Origin: Escherichia phage F2
Sequence record: NC_054913.1
Direction: 5' to 3' (one strand)
Length of the DNA stretch: 64,000 nucleotides
How positions within the stretch are numbered: the stretch's first letter is position 1; every line of letters begins with the position of its first letter. This document shows, piece after piece, positions 3,719 through 56,341 of the stretch. The notes below the pieces were generated by a model that had not been told where the DNA came from, did no database searches, and saw only the letters and a program-made list of their open reading frames with translations. A program made the translations under genes and the position numbers.

Positions 3719-4249
3719 ATGAAAACTGTAATTGAAACAACCGAGTTGTTTGGTGATTTATGTATCGAAAAACGTGGTTATGTGTATGTTCTGACACAAG
3801 AAGATGATGCTGCTACTATTCTTCCTATGGAACTAGACAAGATTTTGAAACTCAATCCACCAGGTCATGCATCTGTAATTAACATTAACGAAGACCTTCA
3901 AGTTCGTTTTTATCATGGACTTTATAGTGGGGTTAATATCGAAACCGAAGACGAATGTTTTTCTATTAATAATTGGAAAACATTCGTCACTAAGGTGAAA
4001 GAATTAATGGAATCTGAAACAGCCAAAAAGGCCAAACTTCAATGGGCTAAATGCCGTAATGCTTTTATTACAAATCAGGACCGCCCTGACTATACAACAG
4101 TCCTAGGCGTTAATCCTTCTTATGAAGATGGTGATGTCGTAGTTATTCGTCAAATTGATGACCTTCGTCAACATATCATTACATTGGACAAAGATGAAGC
4201 AGTTGCTCTTAAAGCTTATCTTGATTCTATTATCCCGACTTTGAAATAA
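3719..4249 (+). CDS. hypothetical protein
   Basis: ORF track 3707..4249; ATG at 3719. Confidence 0.55.
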   Translation: MKTVIETTELFGDLCIEKRGYVYVLTQEDDAATILPMELDKILKLNPPGHASVININEDLQVRFYHGLYSGVNIETEDECFSINNWKTFVTKVKELMESETAKKAKLQWAKCRNAFITNQDRPDYTTVLGVNPSYEDGDVVVIRQIDDLRQHIITLDKDEAVALKAYLDSIIPTLK

Positions 4250-4258
4250 GGAATTATT

Positions 4259-4732
4259 ATGATTATCAATGAAAACTCTTGGCACTTTAAAATTTATGCC
4301 GCGTTCAATAATACATGGAATCGCCCTAAAACGTTGTGTGCTTATTTTTGGAAAACGTTAATCCCGGTATTATCTGTTTCAATTATTGGATTTGCGATTT
4401 TAGCAGCAGTAACAATCATTGGCCAGGAAATTTTAACTAGATTCTTTGTTTTTAGCAGTCTATGGACATTAGTTCCAGCCTCAATTGGCGTAGGCATTTT
4501 AATGGTATCAGTCATGGCTTTTATTTCTGCCGGGTTGATAATTGGTCCGTCTTGGTTGTTAGACAAATATAACGACAGAAAATATTATAAAGAAATTGAG
4601 CTCATTGCGCAAAACCAAGAACGAATTAAAAATGGACTTGAACCTATTGAACGTAAGAAATCATTAATAGGTGAATACCTTAAAGCTCGTAAAGAAAAAA
4701 TCTGTCCTACTCTTGAATATAAGGCTAAATGA
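4259..4732 (+). CDS. hypothetical membrane protein
   Basis: Two long hydrophobic segments. Confidence 0.55.
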   Translation: MIINENSWHFKIYAAFNNTWNRPKTLCAYFWKTLIPVLSVSIIGFAILAAVTIIGQEILTRFFVFSSLWTLVPASIGVGILMVSVMAFISAGLIIGPSWLLDKYNDRKYYKEIELIAQNQERIKNGLEPIERKKSLIGEYLKARKEKICPTLEYKAK

Positions 4733-51156: not shown

Positions 51157-51468
51157 ATGGTTTATGTATATGCAATAGTTTATCGAGATATGGAAGGATT
51201 TACTGTCCCGGTTCCACTTGATGAGCATCGTCCTGCAGTATTTTTTAGAAAGGATATTGCAGATAAAGTTTTTGATACTTTGAAAACACAGTATAAAACA
51301 GATTTAAAAATGGGAGTTCTAAGAATGGTCGAAACTCCGCGTAAGTTCTGGTTTAATAAGCTTGAAATGAAACACGTTAAACTAGATGCGGAGACGCAAA
51401 AATTGTATCAACGAATCCTGGACACAGGCCGTATTGTTAGTATTCCAATTGCAGGGACTTTACGATGA
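51157..51468 (+). CDS. hypothetical protein (dda.1 position)
   Basis: Gene order only. Confidence 0.45.
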   Translation: MVYVYAIVYRDMEGFTVPVPLDEHRPAVFFRKDIADKVFDTLKTQYKTDLKMGVLRMVETPRKFWFNKLEMKHVKLDAETQKLYQRILDTGRIVSIPIAGTLR

Positions 51469-52778
51469 CATTTGATGATTTGACTGAAGGTCAGAAAAAC
51501 GCCTTCAACGTTGTTATGAACGCTATTAAAGAAAAGAAACATCACGTAACTATTAATGGGCCTGCCGGTACAGGTAAAACAACCCTTACTAGATTCATCG
51601 TTGAAGCCCTTATTTCTTCTGGAGAATCAGGTATTATTTTAGCAGCCCCTACACATGCTGCTAAAAAGGTTCTAAGCAAACTCGCTGGTCAAGAAGCATC
51701 GACTATTCATAGCATTCTTAAAATCAACCCAACTACATACGAAGAAAACGTATTGTTTGAACAGAAAAAGGTCCCAGACTTAGCCTTGTGTCGTGTACTG
51801 TTATTTGATGAAGCGTCAATGTGCGACCGTTCTCTGTTTAAAATAATGTTAGCTAGTATCCCTAAATGGTGTACAGTAATTGGAATCGGCGACCGTTGCC
51901 AGATTCGTCCGGTAGACCCAGGCGAATCAACTGCGTATCTAAGTCCTTTCTTCACTCACAAAGACTTCGTGCAATGCAACCTTACAGAAGTTAAACGTAG
52001 CAATGCACCAATTATTGATGTTGCGACTGATATTCGTAATGGGAAATGGATTTACGATAAAGTAGTTGATGGACATGGTGTTCACGGATATACCGACCTT
52101 AAATCGTATATGATGAACTATTTTAACGTCGTTAAAACTCCTGAAGACCTTTTCGAAAATCGAATGATGGCATTCACAAATAAGTCGGTGGACAAGTTAA
52201 ATTCAATTATTCGCCGAAAACTTCTTGAAACAGAAAAACCATTTATTAAAGACGAAGTCATTGTTCTACAAGAGCCGTTTACTAAGACATATAAGCTAGA
52301 TGGTAAAAATATGACCGAAATGCTTTTCAATAACGGCCAATTCGTTCGTATTCGAGATGCTGTAGAAACGTCTACATTCGTTAAAGCACGTGGTGTTTCA
52401 GGCGAATATATGATACGATACTGGAATCTTACAGTAGAAACATACGGGGATGATGAAGAATACATCCGCGAAGATATAAAGGTTATTTCTTCTGAAGAAG
52501 AGCTTTATAAATTCAATTTGTTTTTGGCTAAGACCGCAGAAACATACAAATTTTGGAATAAAGGTGGTAAAGCTCCATGGAGCGAATTCTGGGATGCTAA
52601 ACGTATGTTCACTAAGGTGAAGGCACTACCAGTATCGACCTTCCATAAGGCCCAGGGTATGTCTGTTGACACGGCCTTTGTTTATACACCGTGTATCCAT
52701 TATGCTGATTCAGAATTAGCTAAACAGTTATTGTATGTTGGCACAACTCGTGGTCGGTTTGACGTCCATTTTATTTGA
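51465..52778 (+). CDS. dda: SF1 DNA helicase Dda
   Basis: Walker A GPAGTGKTT, Walker B LLFDEASM; 437 aa. Confidence 0.9.
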   Translation: MTFDDLTEGQKNAFNVVMNAIKEKKHHVTINGPAGTGKTTLTRFIVEALISSGESGIILAAPTHAAKKVLSKLAGQEASTIHSILKINPTTYEENVLFEQKKVPDLALCRVLLFDEASMCDRSLFKIMLASIPKWCTVIGIGDRCQIRPVDPGESTAYLSPFFTHKDFVQCNLTEVKRSNAPIIDVATDIRNGKWIYDKVVDGHGVHGYTDLKSYMMNYFNVVKTPEDLFENRMMAFTNKSVDKLNSIIRRKLLETEKPFIKDEVIVLQEPFTKTYKLDGKNMTEMLFNNGQFVRIRDAVETSTFVKARGVSGEYMIRYWNLTVETYGDDEEYIREDIKVISSEEELYKFNLFLAKTAETYKFWNKGGKAPWSEFWDAKRMFTKVKALPVSTFHKAQGMSVDTAFVYTPCIHYADSELAKQLLYVGTTRGRFDVHFI

Positions 52779-52787
52779 GAGAAAATT

Positions 52788-53465
52788 ATGAGCACTGATG
52801 TTATTATAGATTTTGAAACATTCGGCAATACATCAAAAGCGGCTGTTATTGACCTTGCGGTTATTGCATATGATTCCGACCCTGAAGTTGTTGAATCATT
52901 TGAAGAACTTGTTCAACGAGGTAAGCGAATTAAATTTAATTTAGCTTCTCAGAAAGGGAAGCGAGTTTTCGCTAAATCCACTATGAAATGGTGGAAAGAA
53001 CAATCGGCCGAAGCACGTAAAAACTTGGCTCCGTCTGAAGACGATGTCACTACGCTTGAAGGCATTAAAATCTTTTTAGATTATTGCCGAGCTAATAAAG
53101 TTGACCAATGGAAATCACAGATGTGGTGCCGTGGTATGAGCTTTGACTTCCCGATCTTGGTCGATTTGATTCGTGACCTCTATCGTGATGAAGGTGTTCT
53201 TGAACCAGATATTGATACTGATAAATTAGAACCGGTTAAATTCTGGGCTCAACGCGATATTCGTACTGCAATCGAAGCTTACTCGTTGACACGAGGATTA
53301 AGTATGTGTCCATTACCGATGGGTACGCTAAAAGGATTCGTTGCCCATGATAGTATTCATGATTGTGCTAAAGATATTTTGATGTTAAAATATGCTCAGC
53401 GTTATGCGCTTGGTCTTGAAGATGTCCCTGAGAATCCTGACCCGTTAAGTGTAAAACAGCGATAA
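52788..53465 (+). CDS. dexA: exonuclease A (DEDD 3'-5' exonuclease)
   Basis: N-terminal IIDFETFG exo motif, 225 aa, position after dda. Confidence 0.85.
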   Translation: MSTDVIIDFETFGNTSKAAVIDLAVIAYDSDPEVVESFEELVQRGKRIKFNLASQKGKRVFAKSTMKWWKEQSAEARKNLAPSEDDVTTLEGIKIFLDYCRANKVDQWKSQMWCRGMSFDFPILVDLIRDLYRDEGVLEPDIDTDKLEPVKFWAQRDIRTAIEAYSLTRGLSMCPLPMGTLKGFVAHDSIHDCAKDILMLKYAQRYALGLEDVPENPDPLSVKQR

Positions 53466-53470
53466 AACCA

Positions 53471-53500
53471 GTTTACAACCAAGGACGGTTGGAGTATAAT
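53471..53500 (+). promoter_or_regulatory. T4-type early promoter (repeated cassette)
   Basis: gtttac 53471-53476, tataat 53495-53500. Confidence 0.55.
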
Positions 53501-53531: not shown

Positions 53532-54026
53532 ATGAATATCAATACTACGGCTACTTACATCCTGAAAGACGAAAAACAAATCAACTGGTACGGTGCTTCA
53601 GTGCGAGCTTACGAAAAGTTTTGTGAAATTTTAGGTGCCACTCAAGGTAATAGTTTCACTATTGTTAACTTTATCAAACAAGCTGAAGGCCCTTGGTTAT
53701 TCTTAGAAATTAAAAATTCATACGGTACAATTTCTACTACCGCCATTCCAAGCACCGACTTTGAACTGTTGATTGAAGAAGCACCTGTTAAAGATGGTCT
53801 CCACTTTGATATGGATATCGCTTGTATGTACGGTACTCTGATTAAGCCTATTGAGCCTACTGATTTGTTGTGTAAAGCTGTTTCAATTCGACGACCATTC
53901 GCTGGACCGGTAAGTGGCTGGGTAACTGACCAGTGGATTGAAGATGGGGTTGAACTTCTGAACGTTGTTCATGCCGGTGATTTTAGTGTGGTTCCACGTA
54001 GTGCTGTGGTTAATATCCTTAATTAA
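53532..54026 (+). CDS. hypothetical protein, tandem paralog A
   Basis: C-terminal GWVTDQWIEDGVELLNVVHAGDFSVV shared with two downstream ORFs. Confidence 0.55.
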   Translation: MNINTTATYILKDEKQINWYGASVRAYEKFCEILGATQGNSFTIVNFIKQAEGPWLFLEIKNSYGTISTTAIPSTDFELLIEEAPVKDGLHFDMDIACMYGTLIKPIEPTDLLCKAVSIRRPFAGPVSGWVTDQWIEDGVELLNVVHAGDFSVVPRSAVVNILN

Positions 54027-54028
54027 TG

Positions 54029-54058
54029 TTGTACATCCAAGGATGGATGGAGTATAAT
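54029..54058 (+). promoter_or_regulatory. T4-type early promoter
   Basis: ttgtac -35-like, tataat 54053-54058. Confidence 0.45.
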
Positions 54059-54088
54059 GAATTCAACTTAAACAAAGAGAGAAAAAAT

Positions 54089-54586
54089 ATGATTACTATT
54101 GGTGAAATCCTTCGTGTATCTCCTGCTTCTCGTTCTAAAGCTGCAGGTCGTCTGGTTGAAGTAGCAGGGCTTCGTACTAACGGCATGGGACGTGTTAAAG
54201 AAGTTAAAGTTCGAATCATGCCCAGTTTTGGCGGACAAGATGCCCAGTATGCTTACGTAAGTCCTAAATTCCTGGAAAAACATATACGAGTCCAATTTGC
54301 TTCAAGCGAAGAAGTTGCACCTGCACACTTTGCTTCAAGCGATATCGTTGAGCCTAATGTACAGTTCAAATGGGCCTTGTGTAAAGGCGTTGAATTTATA
54401 ACCGATAAAGAATTCGATTACATCGACGAATACGGTTATCCAAGCACAACCGATACCATGTGTGGCTTCATTAGTGACCAATGGGTAGAAGATGGCGAAA
54501 AGTTATACAATATCGTATTCTTAGGTGACTTCCGAGTTGTTAAAGAATCTGAAATCACTCGCTATGTGTCTCCTCGTAAAGCTTAA
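54089..54586 (+). CDS. hypothetical protein, tandem paralog B
   Basis: ASRSKAAGRLVEV...GFISDQWVEDGEKLYNIVFLGDF shared with paralog C. Confidence 0.55.
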   Translation: MITIGEILRVSPASRSKAAGRLVEVAGLRTNGMGRVKEVKVRIMPSFGGQDAQYAYVSPKFLEKHIRVQFASSEEVAPAHFASSDIVEPNVQFKWALCKGVEFITDKEFDYIDEYGYPSTTDTMCGFISDQWVEDGEKLYNIVFLGDFRVVKESEITRYVSPRKA

Positions 54587-54595
54587 GGAATTATT

Positions 54596-55015
54596 ATGAA
54601 TATTGTAAATCTCTCTACAGGTGATTACGTATATGTATCTGTTGCTTCTCGCTCTAAAGTTGCCGGGAAGTTGGTTGAAGTTCTTTCTGTGAGTGATCCG
54701 GTTTTTGGACGTAACGAAGTTAAAGTTCGTGACGCTGATGGTAACATTGGTTATGTTAAAAGCCAATTCATTGAGCCAGAAGAACGTGTGTTCAAATGGA
54801 AACTGTGCAGGTCTGTTTTAGTTGTAAAAGACCGTGAATTCACTATTGCTGCGGCAACCGATGGAACGCCGTGGAAAACTAAGCAAATCGCCGGATTTAT
54901 TAGCGACCGTTGGGTAGAAGATGGTGTTAAGCTTTATAACATCGTTTTCGCCGGACAGTTCATGGTAGTTCCTGAGTTCCAAATCAAAAAATATTGTCCA
55001 GCATCTTTTGCATAA
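54596..55015 (+). CDS. hypothetical protein, tandem paralog C
   Basis: ASRSKVAGKLVEV...GFISDRWVEDGVKLYNIVFAGQF. Confidence 0.55.
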   Translation: MNIVNLSTGDYVYVSVASRSKVAGKLVEVLSVSDPVFGRNEVKVRDADGNIGYVKSQFIEPEERVFKWKLCRSVLVVKDREFTIAAATDGTPWKTKQIAGFISDRWVEDGVKLYNIVFAGQFMVVPEFQIKKYCPASFA

Positions 55016-55019
55016 AGTA

Positions 55020-55048
55020 GTTTACTTCTCCTCTAGATGTGTTACTAT
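55020..55048 (+). promoter_or_regulatory. T4-type early promoter
   Basis: gtttac 55020-55025, tactat 55043-55048. Confidence 0.55.
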
Positions 55049-55076
55049 AGACCTATCAAAACAAGAGGAGAATATT

Positions 55077-55304
55077 ATGAAACGTCAAATCATTAAAAAC
55101 GTAACTACTGATTCAAACATCGATGAGTTTGAAGATGTTCTGTTTAATCCTGATTTAGTTGTTGTACAGAAAAACTGGACCGAATTTTTATGCTACACCG
55201 AAGTGGTTTACGTTTACGAAAAACTCGGTGATGAAATGCCTATCTATGGCATCTTCCGTGAAATCACTGAAAACGGTACAACTTATTGGAAGGAAACTTA
55301 CTAA
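55077..55304 (+). CDS. hypothetical protein
   Basis: ATG 55077 with AGAGGAGAA RBS. Confidence 0.5.
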
Positions 55305-55714
55305 TGGCTAATAAATTCCGCGTTAACTCATGGTACCAATTTATAGATAAACGTGCCCAAGAAGAGTTTATTAAAGACCACACTGATAATGGGATTTATG
55401 CACGACGTCTTGGCATGGAACCATTTAAAGTATTAGATGTTGACCATCTTGGTCGTCCTACTAAAATTTTAACATCTACTGGCACGGTTGGATACGCAAC
55501 AGGCGGTGATATCCTTGATGAAAACTTTATCTGGCTCTCCACGAATGAAGCAGAGTTCTTTGACGAAGTTGAAAATCCATATCAAGCGTCTGAAGAGCAA
55601 GATTCTGGTGAACTTGGTGAATTGTCTGAATTTCCTGTGATGACGATTACTATCGAAAATAATGACCAGGCATGGTCTTTGTATCAAATGTTGAAAGCAC
55701 ATTTTAAGGAATAA
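55304..55714 (+). CDS. hypothetical protein
   Basis: ATG 55304 overlapping upstream stop. Confidence 0.5.
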
Positions 55715-55716
55715 TA

Positions 55717-55896
55717 ATGCCATTATACGACTATAAATGTCAATCTGAAGATTGTGGCCATGAATATGAAAAAATTAAAAGAATTTCTGAACGAGAAAAC
55801 GATGTTTGCCCTGAATGTCATCGTCTGTCTACTCGTCGGGTTTCTGCTCCTAAACATGTGAACGGTGGTTTTTACGACTTACTTAAGAAGGGTTAA
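55717..55896 (+). CDS. small zinc-ribbon protein (59 aa)
   Basis: CQSEDCG...CPECH two CxxC pairs; below track cutoff. Confidence 0.45.
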   Translation: MPLYDYKCQSEDCGHEYEKIKRISERENDVCPECHRLSTRRVSAPKHVNGGFYDLLKKG

Positions 55897-55898
55897 TT

Positions 55899-56324
55899 AT
55901 GGCTTTTAAAGGTTTTGAAGTTGGTAAGAAATATCGTATTATCAAAGGACAGGAAGATAATTTCTTGAGAATTCTTAATACGACTGGTAAACGTCTTAAT
56001 ACTAATCTGCATACTACTTTATTGTCCAAAGATTTTATTGTAGAAGAGATGATTGGTTACGGTGTTTCGGTTATTGCCGTAGAAGCCGTAGGCGATTATG
56101 GCCGAACTATTCATAGTATGCAAGGTGATATTCTGCTTTATGGTGCAGAATTTAAATTCTTTGAAGAAGTTCCGGAACCAGATACAGCTGTCGATTTCAA
56201 AAAAGGCTCTGTAGAATTTGTTGATGGTTCGGTGATCGTATCAGGTGATGTGGTCATTACAGTTAAAAGTGAACAAGGGCGTTTGGCTGCAATTGATGCA
56301 CTTCAGAAAATTAAATTTAAATAA
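55899..56324 (+). CDS. hypothetical protein
   Basis: 141-aa ORF, followed by terminator. Confidence 0.5.
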   Translation: MAFKGFEVGKKYRIIKGQEDNFLRILNTTGKRLNTNLHTTLLSKDFIVEEMIGYGVSVIAVEAVGDYGRTIHSMQGDILLYGAEFKFFEEVPEPDTAVDFKKGSVEFVDGSVIVSGDVVITVKSEQGRLAAIDALQKIKFK

Positions 56325-56341
56325 GGGCTTCGGCCCTTTTT
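56325..56341 (+). terminator. terminator hairpin (UUCG tetraloop)
   Basis: gggcttcggccc + ttttt. Confidence 0.6.

What the first reader, a model, noticed from the sequence alone, without database searches (positions are those of the whole stretch)
53532..55015. Three tandem paralogous genes
Three consecutive ORFs of 139-165 aa share a conserved C-terminal module (G-F/W-I/V-S/T-D-Q/R-W-V/I-EDG...L-Y/L-N-I/V-V-F/H-x-G-x-F-x-VV), and B and C also share an N-terminal ASRSK-AG-LVEV segment. The first two have their own early promoters. Tandem diversification suggests a family under selection.
Basis: seen in the sequence. Interest (0 to 1): 0.45.

Follow-up and report, generated by a model that had tools for sequence, protein, structure and literature searches.

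The report
MotB.1, MotB and MotB-like genes
The three neighbouring genes are real relatives of each other, but they are the already-described MotB/MotB.1 family of early DNA-binding "host-takeover" proteins of T4-like phages, so the finding is correct and ordinary.

Summary
ORFs A (53532-54026), B (54089-54586) and C (54596-55015) share a C-terminal domain of about 50-75 aa (BLASTP 4e-10, 6e-11, 1e-30; profile comparison E = 6e-13). B and C also share a KOW-like N-terminal domain. The window comes from a Mosigvirus (RB69-group T4-like coliphage). A is the full-length orthologue of T4 MotB.1, B the orthologue of T4 MotB, and C a second, linker-less MotB paralogue co-transcribed with B. This layout (two motB plus one motB.1 in RB69, shared C-terminal domain, different N-terminal domains) was published in 2021 (PMC7827196), so the finding is already known. 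All three genes evolve under purifying selection (dN/dS 0.01-0.25), not detectable diversifying selection. The locus does change by recombination: domain shuffling, B/C fusions, variable linkers and gain or loss of gene cassettes. Predicted structures show two small SH3/Tudor/KOW-like beta-barrels joined by a disordered linker. Two by-products are worth recording. The "119-aa" T4 MotB.1 and the RB69 "132 aa + 29-aa peptide" come from single-base insertions found only in those two old reference sequences; the real protein carries a complete MotB-type C-terminal domain. A short motif, DxD[IVLF]xx[ML]Y, accompanies MotB.1-type C-terminal domains.

The parts
53471..53500 (+). T4-early-type promoter-like site upstream of A (GTTTACA, 17-nt spacer, TATAAT)
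   Evidence: Consensus scan scores it 11/12. It is one of 16 GTTTAC-N16-18-TAnnnT sites on the + strand of the window, against 1 on the - strand. Not shown experimentally.
53532..54026 (+). Gene A: full-length MotB.1 orthologue (164 aa)
   Evidence: phrog_2333 6e-82; PF17613 4.5e-9 on residues 88-159 only. BLASTP to T4 MotB.1 gives 39% identity, E = 1.8e-28 (45% in the MAFFT alignment). Relatives at 93-99% identity occur in Mosigvirus genomes.
53532..53783 (+). A N-terminal domain (residues 1-84), beta-rich with one helix; the MotB.1-type 'LSm-like' domain of the literature
   Evidence: AF2 pLDDT about 85-89. Weak Foldseek match to a GoF model, E = 7.6e-3, TM 0.51. The LSm-like assignment comes from PMC12152347. 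Sequence profiles do not link it significantly to the GoF-like neighbours.
53784..53864 (+). A linker (residues 85-111), predicted disordered; contains the motif DMDIACMY (residues 93-100, nt 53808-53831)
   Evidence: pLDDT < 50 for residues 85-113. The motif DxD[IVLF]xx[ML]Y is in 8 of 26 family representatives, against 0.01 expected from shuffles, and only with MotB.1-type C-terminal domains.
53865..54023 (+). A C-terminal domain (residues 112-164): the module shared by A, B and C (MotB.1 subtype, ...GWVTDQWIEDGVELLNVVHAGDFSVVPRS...)
   Evidence: hhalign E = 6e-13 against the B/C family. The model has five beta strands with a helical turn before the last strand.
54030..54058 (+). Promoter-like site upstream of B (TGTACA, 17-nt spacer, TATAAT), at the position equivalent to the GTTTAC...TATAAT site upstream of T4 motB
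   Evidence: It lies downstream of the ATG at 54026, which argues for the 54089 start.
54089..54586 (+). Gene B: MotB orthologue (165 aa) with a KOW-like N-terminal domain (1-63), a disordered linker (64-90, nt 54278-54358) and a C-terminal domain (91-165, nt 54359-54583)
   Evidence: PF17613 5.4e-37 over the full length; phrog_1671 7e-63. 45% identity to T4 MotB, E = 1e-42. AF2 model.
54596..55015 (+). Gene C: second MotB paralogue (139 aa) with the same two domains as B but no linker. It has no promoter of its own, starts 9 nt after B's stop codon, and has an AGGA ribosome-binding site
   Evidence: PF17613 7e-22; phrog_1671 3e-51. B-C BLASTP 1e-30. A copy at 80% identity or more is present in 206 of 776 MotB-bearing phage records.
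55016..55076 (+). Junction and promoter-like region upstream of cef (GTTTAC...TACTAT at 55020-55048). Most relatives carry a 174-aa MotB.2-like gene cassette here
   Evidence: Alignment with AV111 and TH58 and annotated regions. The cassette protein matches T4 MotB.2 at E = 6e-16.

Best explanation
The three genes are the MotB/MotB.1 gene cluster of a Mosigvirus (RB69-like T4-type coliphage), in the early, non-essential dda-dexA-...-cef-goF-39 region. Each encodes a small protein built from two small beta-barrel domains joined by a flexible linker. B is the orthologue of T4 MotB. In T4, MotB is an abundant early protein that binds double-stranded DNA tightly and without sequence specificity, changes how the host nucleoid protein H-NS sits on DNA, is toxic when overproduced, and doubles burst size. 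C is a compact second copy of the same two-domain design, without the linker, transcribed together with B. A is the intact form of MotB.1: the family's C-terminal barrel fused to a different, acidic N-terminal barrel. Shown here: homology, domain layout, predicted folds, promoter-like sites, copy-number distribution and purifying selection. Inferred by homology: B, and probably C, bind DNA early in infection and remodel host nucleoid/H-NS complexes. Open: what A does, and whether the shared C-terminal barrel is the DNA-binding surface or a protein-interaction or oligomerisation surface. Because its net charge ranges from -5 to +4 among the three copies while its core motif stays constant, I lean towards a partner-binding or structural role for the conserved core. 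On that reading, DNA affinity would come from the basic surfaces: B's N-terminal domain and C's C-terminal domain. The cluster arose by old duplication plus domain shuffling and is still being rearranged by recombination.
Against: No experiment has been done on these Mosigvirus proteins. B is only 45% identical to T4 MotB and has pI 5.8, against 9.2 for T4 MotB, so its DNA affinity could differ. Which MotB domain binds DNA is not known in the literature read. T4 MotB.1 deletion or amber mutants have no phenotype under laboratory conditions. The whole-model fold searches cannot say which of the two domains produced each match. The AF2 models are of moderate confidence (mean pLDDT 73-76), and A's C-terminal domain scores 58-83.
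Confidence: 0.9

Rival explanations
1. The similarity is chance or low-complexity, and the ORFs are unrelated.
For: A shares only about 30-50 residues with B and C.
Against: BLASTP E-values of 4e-10 to 1e-30; profile-profile E = 6e-13; all three pass Pfam's curated cut-off for PF17613; the window contains only these three hits.
Confidence: 0.01
2. The cluster is an arms-race locus: paralogues diversify under positive selection to counter variable host factors such as H-NS/StpA variants or defence systems.
For: The locus lies in a hyperplastic early region. Copy number, linker length and domain combinations vary between phages. B and C have higher dN/dS than dexA or cef. The paralogues differ strongly in charge.
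Against: Gene-wide dN/dS is 0.01-0.25 for all three. The core motif is nearly invariant across the family. No defence or anti-defence function is known for MotB in the papers read.
Confidence: 0.15
3. The proteins act mainly on RNA, not DNA: KOW, LSm-like and Tudor-like barrels are common RNA or RNP binders. A/MotB.1 in particular would be an RNA chaperone-like factor.
For: Fold matches to KOW (Spt5, NusG) and Tudor (SMN) domains. An LSm-like N-terminal domain is proposed for MotB.1, GoF and Frd.2. A is acidic and unlike a non-specific DNA binder.
Against: T4 MotB binds DNA tightly and co-purifies with DNA and H-NS. MotB.1 had no effect in the RNA reporter assay, although the construct was the truncated 119-aa form. 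An acidic protein is also a poor RNA binder.
Confidence: 0.15
4. The shared C-terminal barrel is an oligomerisation or partner-docking module, so that A, B and C form mixed complexes or compete for one partner, and the paralogues tune one another.
For: The core motif is conserved across paralogues whose C-terminal domain charge ranges from -5 to +4. B (N-terminal +, C-terminal -) and C (N-terminal -, C-terminal +) have complementary charge patterns. T4 MotB.1 and GoF run as monomer and dimer. A conserved linear motif, DxDxxMY, accompanies MotB.1-type C-terminal domains. Tudor/chromo-like folds are typical peptide readers.
Against: No interaction data exist. AF3 gave no confident homomultimers for MotB.1 or GoF. 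Nothing here tests binding.
Confidence: 0.3

Closest known systems
T4 MotB (modifier of transcription; Pfam PF17613; PHROG 1671)
   Same: B aligns end to end with it (45% identity, E = 1e-42) and C does so without the linker (E = 1.5e-27). They share the KOW-like N-terminal domain with the SRSKAAG motif, the C-terminal domain, the early-region position before cef, and a promoter-like site at the same place.
   Different: The window carries two copies (B and C) where T4 has one. B is near-neutral overall (pI 5.8, against 9.2 for T4 MotB) with an acidic C-terminal domain. C lacks the linker and carries its basic charge on the C-terminal domain. The linker sequence and length differ.
T4 MotB.1 (UniProt P39415, '13.8 kDa protein'; PHROG 2333) and the GoF/MotB.1/Frd.2 'LSm-like fold' family
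   Same: A matches T4 MotB.1 over both the N-terminal domain and the start of the C-terminal domain (E = 1.8e-28). It is located next to motB and has the same MotB.1-type C-terminal domain motif.
   Different: A is full length (164 aa) with a complete C-terminal domain and a 22-residue linker insertion carrying DMDIACMY. The reference T4 entry is cut at 119 aa by a one-base insertion found only in AF158101/NC_000866; 11 other T4 genome records encode 143 aa. In T4 the gene order is motB.2-motB.1-motB. In the window it is A(motB.1)-B-C, with the motB.2-like gene absent.
RB69 locus (motB.1, 29-aa ORF RB69p012, motB, second motB-like, motB.2), described in Patterson-West et al. 2021
   Same: Same genus and same order of the three paralogues. 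RB69 was explicitly reported to have two motB copies, one motB.1 and a 29-aa peptide.
   Different: In the window, gene A is one intact ORF. In the RB69 reference it is split into 132 aa plus 29 aa by two extra bases found in no other Mosigvirus record. The window lacks the motB.2-like gene.
Small SH3-like beta-barrels (Tudor, chromo, PWWP, KOW of NusG/Spt5, EF-P domain I)
   Different: Sequence identity is 6-21% and there is no evidence of common descent. No aromatic-cage or ligand data exist. The literature assigned the MotB C-terminal domain to an OB-fold by HHpred, which my fold searches do not reproduce.

Membership tests
MotB family (Pfam PF17613) | Significant match to the family profile above the curated cut-off (25 bits) | tested here: met
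   A 36.8 bits (profile positions 82-153 only), B 127.6 bits (positions 2-157), C 78.4 bits.
MotB family (Pfam PF17613) | Two-domain design: KOW-like N-terminal domain with the SRSK-AG-LVEV motif plus the MotB C-terminal domain | tested here: met
   Met for B and C. Not met for A, which has a different N-terminal domain, so A belongs to the MotB.1 subgroup.
MotB family (Pfam PF17613) | Position in the early dexA-cef-goF-39 region of a Tevenvirinae genome | tested here: met
   The window order dda-dexA-A-B-C-cef-goF-39.2-x-39 matches T4, RB69 and RB27.
MotB family (Pfam PF17613) | Tight non-specific dsDNA binding, co-purification with H-NS/StpA on DNA, toxicity, burst-size effect | not testable with these tools
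   Known only for T4 MotB (PMC6070864, PMC7827196).
MotB.1 subgroup (PHROG 2333; 'category 2' of Patterson-West 2021) | MotB.1-type N-terminal domain plus MotB.1-type C-terminal domain (PTDLLCKAV...GWVTDQWIEDGVELLNVVH) | tested here: met
   A matches phrog_2333 at 6e-82 over residues 1-164. It aligns with T4-type MotB.1 proteins along its whole length.
GoF/MotB.1/Frd.2 LSm-like fold family (Kim et al. 2025) | N-terminal bent five-stranded antiparallel barrel structurally similar to GoF and Frd.2 | tested here: inconclusive
OB-fold, cold-shock DNA-binding-like (published assignment of the MotB C-terminal domain) | Five-stranded OB barrel with its helix between strands 3 and 4; structural neighbours such as CspA, S1 or the eIF5A C-terminal domain | tested here: inconclusive

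The most novel reading that the evidence does not exclude
The shared C-terminal barrel is a Tudor/SH3-like partner-binding module and not an OB-fold DNA binder. The conserved linker motif DxD[IVLF]xx[ML]Y, found only with MotB.1-type C-terminal domains, is its intramolecular or intermolecular ligand. MotB.1's true activity has been missed because published T4 experiments used the frameshift-truncated 119-aa protein lacking the last three strands of that barrel. The intact protein (A in the window, 143 aa in real T4) would then modulate MotB/H-NS/DNA complexes.
Probability: 0.2. Interest if true: 0.45.

Novelty: already known. Interest (0 to 1): 0.15.

Why it matters
The finding itself adds little. 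The genes are 92-100% identical to genes in deposited Mosigvirus genomes, and the family, its shared C-terminal domain and its multi-copy state in RB69 are published. The practical value is in the corrections. The T4 and RB69 reference annotations of motB.1 are truncated or split by reference-specific single-base insertions, and at least one functional study built its MotB.1 constructs from the truncated T4 reference. The family's C-terminal domain looks SH3/Tudor-like and not OB-like. The locus also gives a clean small example of how early phage genes are rebuilt by domain shuffling, unequal crossover and exchange of promoter-bounded cassettes.

Tried and rejected
- Chance similarity is rejected by the BLASTP, Pfam and hhalign statistics.
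- A six-frame HMM search found no further copies of the module elsewhere in the 64-kb window.
- Gene-wide positive selection is rejected: NG86 dN/dS is 0.25 or less for A, B and C in every comparison. Site-level tests were not done.
- A sequence search of the PDB with B found nothing useful (best E = 0.87).
- A sequence-level link between A's N-terminal domain and the neighbouring GoF-like genes was not significant by hhalign. There is only a weak PHROG cross-hit and a weak Foldseek hit.
- Tandem Repeats Finder saw no repeat in B's linker. By eye, the 14-nt TTTGCTTCAAGCGA recurs 33 nt apart, and orthologues differ by FAS[SV]EEV-type units.
- Programmed frameshifting in T4 motB.1 was considered and rejected, because 11 other T4 genome records simply lack the extra G.
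- The NAR 2021 MotB paper could not be fetched.
- My first coordinates for B were off by one base and were corrected to 54089.

Full report
**What is there.** The stretch 53532-55015 holds three consecutive + strand ORFs:
- A: 53532-54026, 164 aa.
- B: 54089-54586, 165 aa, counted from the ATG that aligns with the start of T4 MotB. A longer ORF begins at 54026.
- C: 54596-55015, 139 aa.

Upstream lie a Dda-type helicase (51465-52778) and the exonuclease DexA (52788-53465). Downstream lie cef (55077-55304), a goF homologue (55304-55714), a 39.2-like zinc-ribbon ORF (55717-55896), a second goF-family ORF (55899-56324) and the topoisomerase subunit gene 39 (from 56388). The 3.7-kb region is 95-98% identical to many coliphages of the genus Mosigvirus (RB69 group), the best being DCP548 at 97.9%.

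- BLASTP gives A-B E = 4e-10 (36 residues, 44% identity), A-C 6e-11 (29 residues, 55%) and B-C 1e-30 (full length, 40%, one 24-residue gap).
- All three pass the curated cut-off of Pfam PF17613 (motB). A matches only the C-terminal half of the profile.
- A profile-profile comparison of the A family with the B/C family gives 97.9% probability and E = 6e-13, aligning A 112-160 with B 96-157. B has a 13-residue hairpin insertion. The shared unit is therefore the whole C-terminal domain.
- A six-frame HMM scan finds exactly three copies in the 64-kb window.
- The N-terminal ASRSK-AG-LVEV segment common to B and C is the conserved KOW-like motif of MotB proteins.

**Promoters.** A sigma-70-type scan finds TTTACA-17-TATAAT (11/12) at 53472-53500 and TGTACA-17-TATAAT (10/12) at 54030-54058. 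The T4-early-style pattern GTTTAC-N16-18-TAnnnT occurs 16 times on the + strand of the window and once on the - strand. Two of these sites are at 53471 (before A) and 55020 (before cef). The site before B corresponds in position to the GTTTAC...TATAAT site before T4 motB. C has no such site; it begins 9 nt after B's stop codon behind an AGGA ribosome-binding site, so B and C are probably co-transcribed. The B promoter lies downstream of the ATG at 54026, so the 186-aa forms annotated in several database records look over-extended. All of this rests on consensus matches.

**Identity of the genes.** T4 has dexA-motB.2-motB.1-motB-cef.
- B is the MotB orthologue (45% identity, E = 1e-42).
- C is a second MotB-type protein (E = 1.5e-27 to T4 MotB).
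- A is the MotB.1 orthologue (E = 1.8e-28).

PHROG assigns B and C to phrog_1671 ('MotB-like transcriptional regulator') and A to phrog_2333. This is published. Patterson-West et al. 2021 (PMC7827196) report that MotB and MotB.1 share a conserved C-terminal domain with different N-terminal domains. [quoted passage not shown] Kim et al. 2025 (PMC12152347) place the N-terminal domain of MotB.1 with those of GoF and Frd.2 in an 'LSm-like fold' family.

**Structure.** AF2 models built on family alignments give two beta-rich domains and a disordered linker for each protein.
- A: mean pLDDT 72.6; N-terminal domain 1-84 at about 88; linker 85-113 below 50; C-terminal domain 114-164 at 58-83.
- B: mean pLDDT 75.6; N-terminal domain 1-63; linker 65-89; C-terminal domain 90-165 at 82-93.

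**Likely function.** By homology, B should behave like T4 MotB:
- It is an abundant early protein that binds DNA tightly and non-specifically and co-purifies with H-NS and StpA only in the presence of DNA.
- It alters the H-NS footprint and up-regulates part of the H-NS regulon when overproduced.
- It is toxic when overproduced and doubles burst size.

C has the same two domains and probably a related activity. A's function is unknown.

Domain charges differ strikingly:

| Protein | N-terminal domain | C-terminal domain | Overall |
|---|---|---|---|
| A | -4 | -1 | net -8 |
| B | +5 | -5 | pI 5.8 |
| C | -1 | +4 | pI 8.9 |
| T4 MotB | +5 | +1 | pI 9.2 |

The C-terminal core motif is nearly invariant while its electrostatics change sign. 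From this I infer that the conserved core serves folding or partner binding, and that DNA affinity comes from whichever domain is basic. This is inference only.

**Evolution and 'selection'.** Nei-Gojobori dN/dS against AV111, TH58, 348Ecol098PP and RB69 is 0.01-0.19 for A, 0.17-0.25 for B and 0.13-0.15 for C. The neighbours dexA (0.03-0.13) and cef (0-0.05) are lower. That is purifying selection, slightly relaxed for B and C. What does vary is the architecture:
- **Family size.** An exhaustive profile search of 1.84 billion cluster representatives with the three window C-terminal domains finds only 28 hits, 26 of them credible. These are 43-251 aa long with the module always at the C-terminus.
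- **Domain combinations.** KOW-type N-terminal domains occur with both MotB-type and MotB.1-type C-terminal domains. At least two other N-terminal domain classes carry the MotB.1-type C-terminal domain.
- **Distribution of C.** Copies at 80% identity or more are in 206 of 776 MotB-bearing phage records and none lie at 60-80%. They include Tequatrovirus RB27, where a Mosigvirus-like motB plus C pair sits in a T4-type gene order.
- **Fusions.** P0155 is a natural fusion of B's N-terminal half with C's C-terminal half, in a contig with dexA-motB.2-[181-aa family member]-fusion-cef. P0195 is a 43-aa fusion of the MotB.2 start with the MotB.1 tail.
- **Linker.** B's linker differs between orthologues by FAS[SV]EEV-type units (151-176 aa from the true start).
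- **Missing cassette.** The window and TH58 lack a 174-aa MotB.2-like gene that most Mosigviruses carry between C and cef. The cassette is bounded by similar promoter and ribosome-binding-site sequences.

**By-products.**
1. In the T4 reference (NC_000866 = AF158101), motB.1 ends '...GWVTDQWIGRWR*' because of one extra G. The +1 frame continues with an intact '...EDGVELLNVVHAGEYSVVPRSAVVAILN'. Eleven other T4 genome records, plus RB55 and RB59, lack that G. The resulting 143-aa protein (P0011) is on 256 contigs.
2. The RB69 reference has two extra bases found in no other Mosigvirus record. They split the gene into 132 aa plus the 29-aa RB69p012, which is the 'category 3 peptide' of the 2021 paper.
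3. Kim et al. 2025 cloned motB.1 according to NC_000866.4 (13.8 kDa) and do not mention a frameshift. Their negative results therefore concern a protein lacking roughly the last three strands of its C-terminal domain.
4. A short motif, DxD[IVLF]xx[ML]Y (DMDIACMY in A, residues 93-100), occurs in 8 of 26 family representatives, against 0.01 expected from shuffles. It always accompanies a MotB.1-type C-terminal domain, and lies either at the N-terminus or in the disordered linker. Its role is unexplained.

**Verdict.** The feature is the known MotB/MotB.1 cluster in its known RB69-type layout, so interest is low. The corrections to the reference annotations and the linker motif are the only points that go beyond what I found in the literature, and I cannot exclude that they have been noted elsewhere.

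Noticed in passing
L004 (T4 NC_000866) - strand about 4143-4340; equivalent window position about 53937: The T4 reference motB.1 (119 aa) is truncated by one extra G (ATTGGAAGATGG in T4, ATTGAAGATGG in the window). The +1 frame still encodes the rest of the C-terminal domain. Eleven other T4 genome records, plus RB55 and RB59, lack the G and encode 143 aa (P0011, seen on 256 contigs). A 2025 functional study built its constructs from the truncated reference.
   Followed up: yes
L006 (RB69 NC_004928) - strand 3870-4010: The RB69 reference has two extra bases (CCGTTTCGC, GACGGTTGTT) that split motB.1 into 132 aa plus the 29-aa ORF RB69p012. All other Mosigvirus records span 139 nt here where RB69 spans 141. 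The published 'category 3' 29-aa peptide is therefore the severed tail of MotB.1.
   Followed up: yes
window 55016-55076; L001 2617-3212: A 174-aa MotB.2-like gene (PF26820 Y00F family in a related contig) sits between C and cef in most Mosigviruses. It is absent from this window and from TH58. The cassette is bounded by similar promoter and ribosome-binding-site sequences, which suggests gain or loss by recombination between them.
   Followed up: partly
window 53808-53831 (A residues 93-100): The short linear motif DxD[IVLF]xx[ML]Y (DMDIACMY in A) is in 8 of 26 family representatives, against 0.01 expected from shuffles. It occurs only with MotB.1-type C-terminal domains, at the N-terminus or in the disordered linker, and is often preceded by DG[YF]V. 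Its function is unknown.
   Followed up: partly
window 54278-54358 (B linker): The B linker is hypervariable in length among orthologues (151-176 aa proteins). It is built from FAS[SV]EEV-like units, and a 14-nt direct repeat (TTTGCTTCAAGCGA) recurs 33 nt apart in the window. The window's B lacks the DGYVCES segment present in many orthologues.
   Followed up: partly
L008 1373-1894 (P0155); P0195: Two natural recombinants were found: a fusion of B's N-terminal half with C's C-terminal half, replacing the two genes, and a 43-aa fusion of the MotB.2 start with the MotB.1 tail. Both are evidence of unequal crossover or deletion within the cluster.
   Followed up: partly
L007 (RB27, Tequatrovirus) 1377-2279: A Mosigvirus-like motB plus a C-type gene (90.6% aa and 86% nt identity to the window's C) sit inside a T4-type gene order. 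This suggests that the B+C pair moves between genera as a unit.
   Followed up: partly
window 54026-54088: Many database records annotate B from the ATG at 54026 (186-197 aa). That ATG lies upstream of the promoter-like -10 box at 54053-58, and the T4 MotB alignment starts at 54089, so these annotations are probably over-extended.
   Followed up: partly
window 55304-55714 and 55899-56324: Two ORFs flanking the 39.2-like zinc-ribbon gene both match phrog_622 (8.8e-39 and 7e-22) and goF PHROGs. They form a second, more diverged paralogue pair (GoF-like) in the same early region. The second ORF also has a weak hit to A's PHROG (E = 0.0013).
   Followed up: partly
window, whole 64 kb: The T4-early-type promoter pattern GTTTAC-N16-18-TAnnnT is strongly strand-biased: 16 on the + strand and 1 on the - strand.
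   Followed up: partly
window 56323-56338: A GC-rich hairpin followed by a T-run (AAGGGCTTCGGCCCTT TTTGC), terminator-like on both strands, lies between the last small ORF and gene 39.
   Followed up: no
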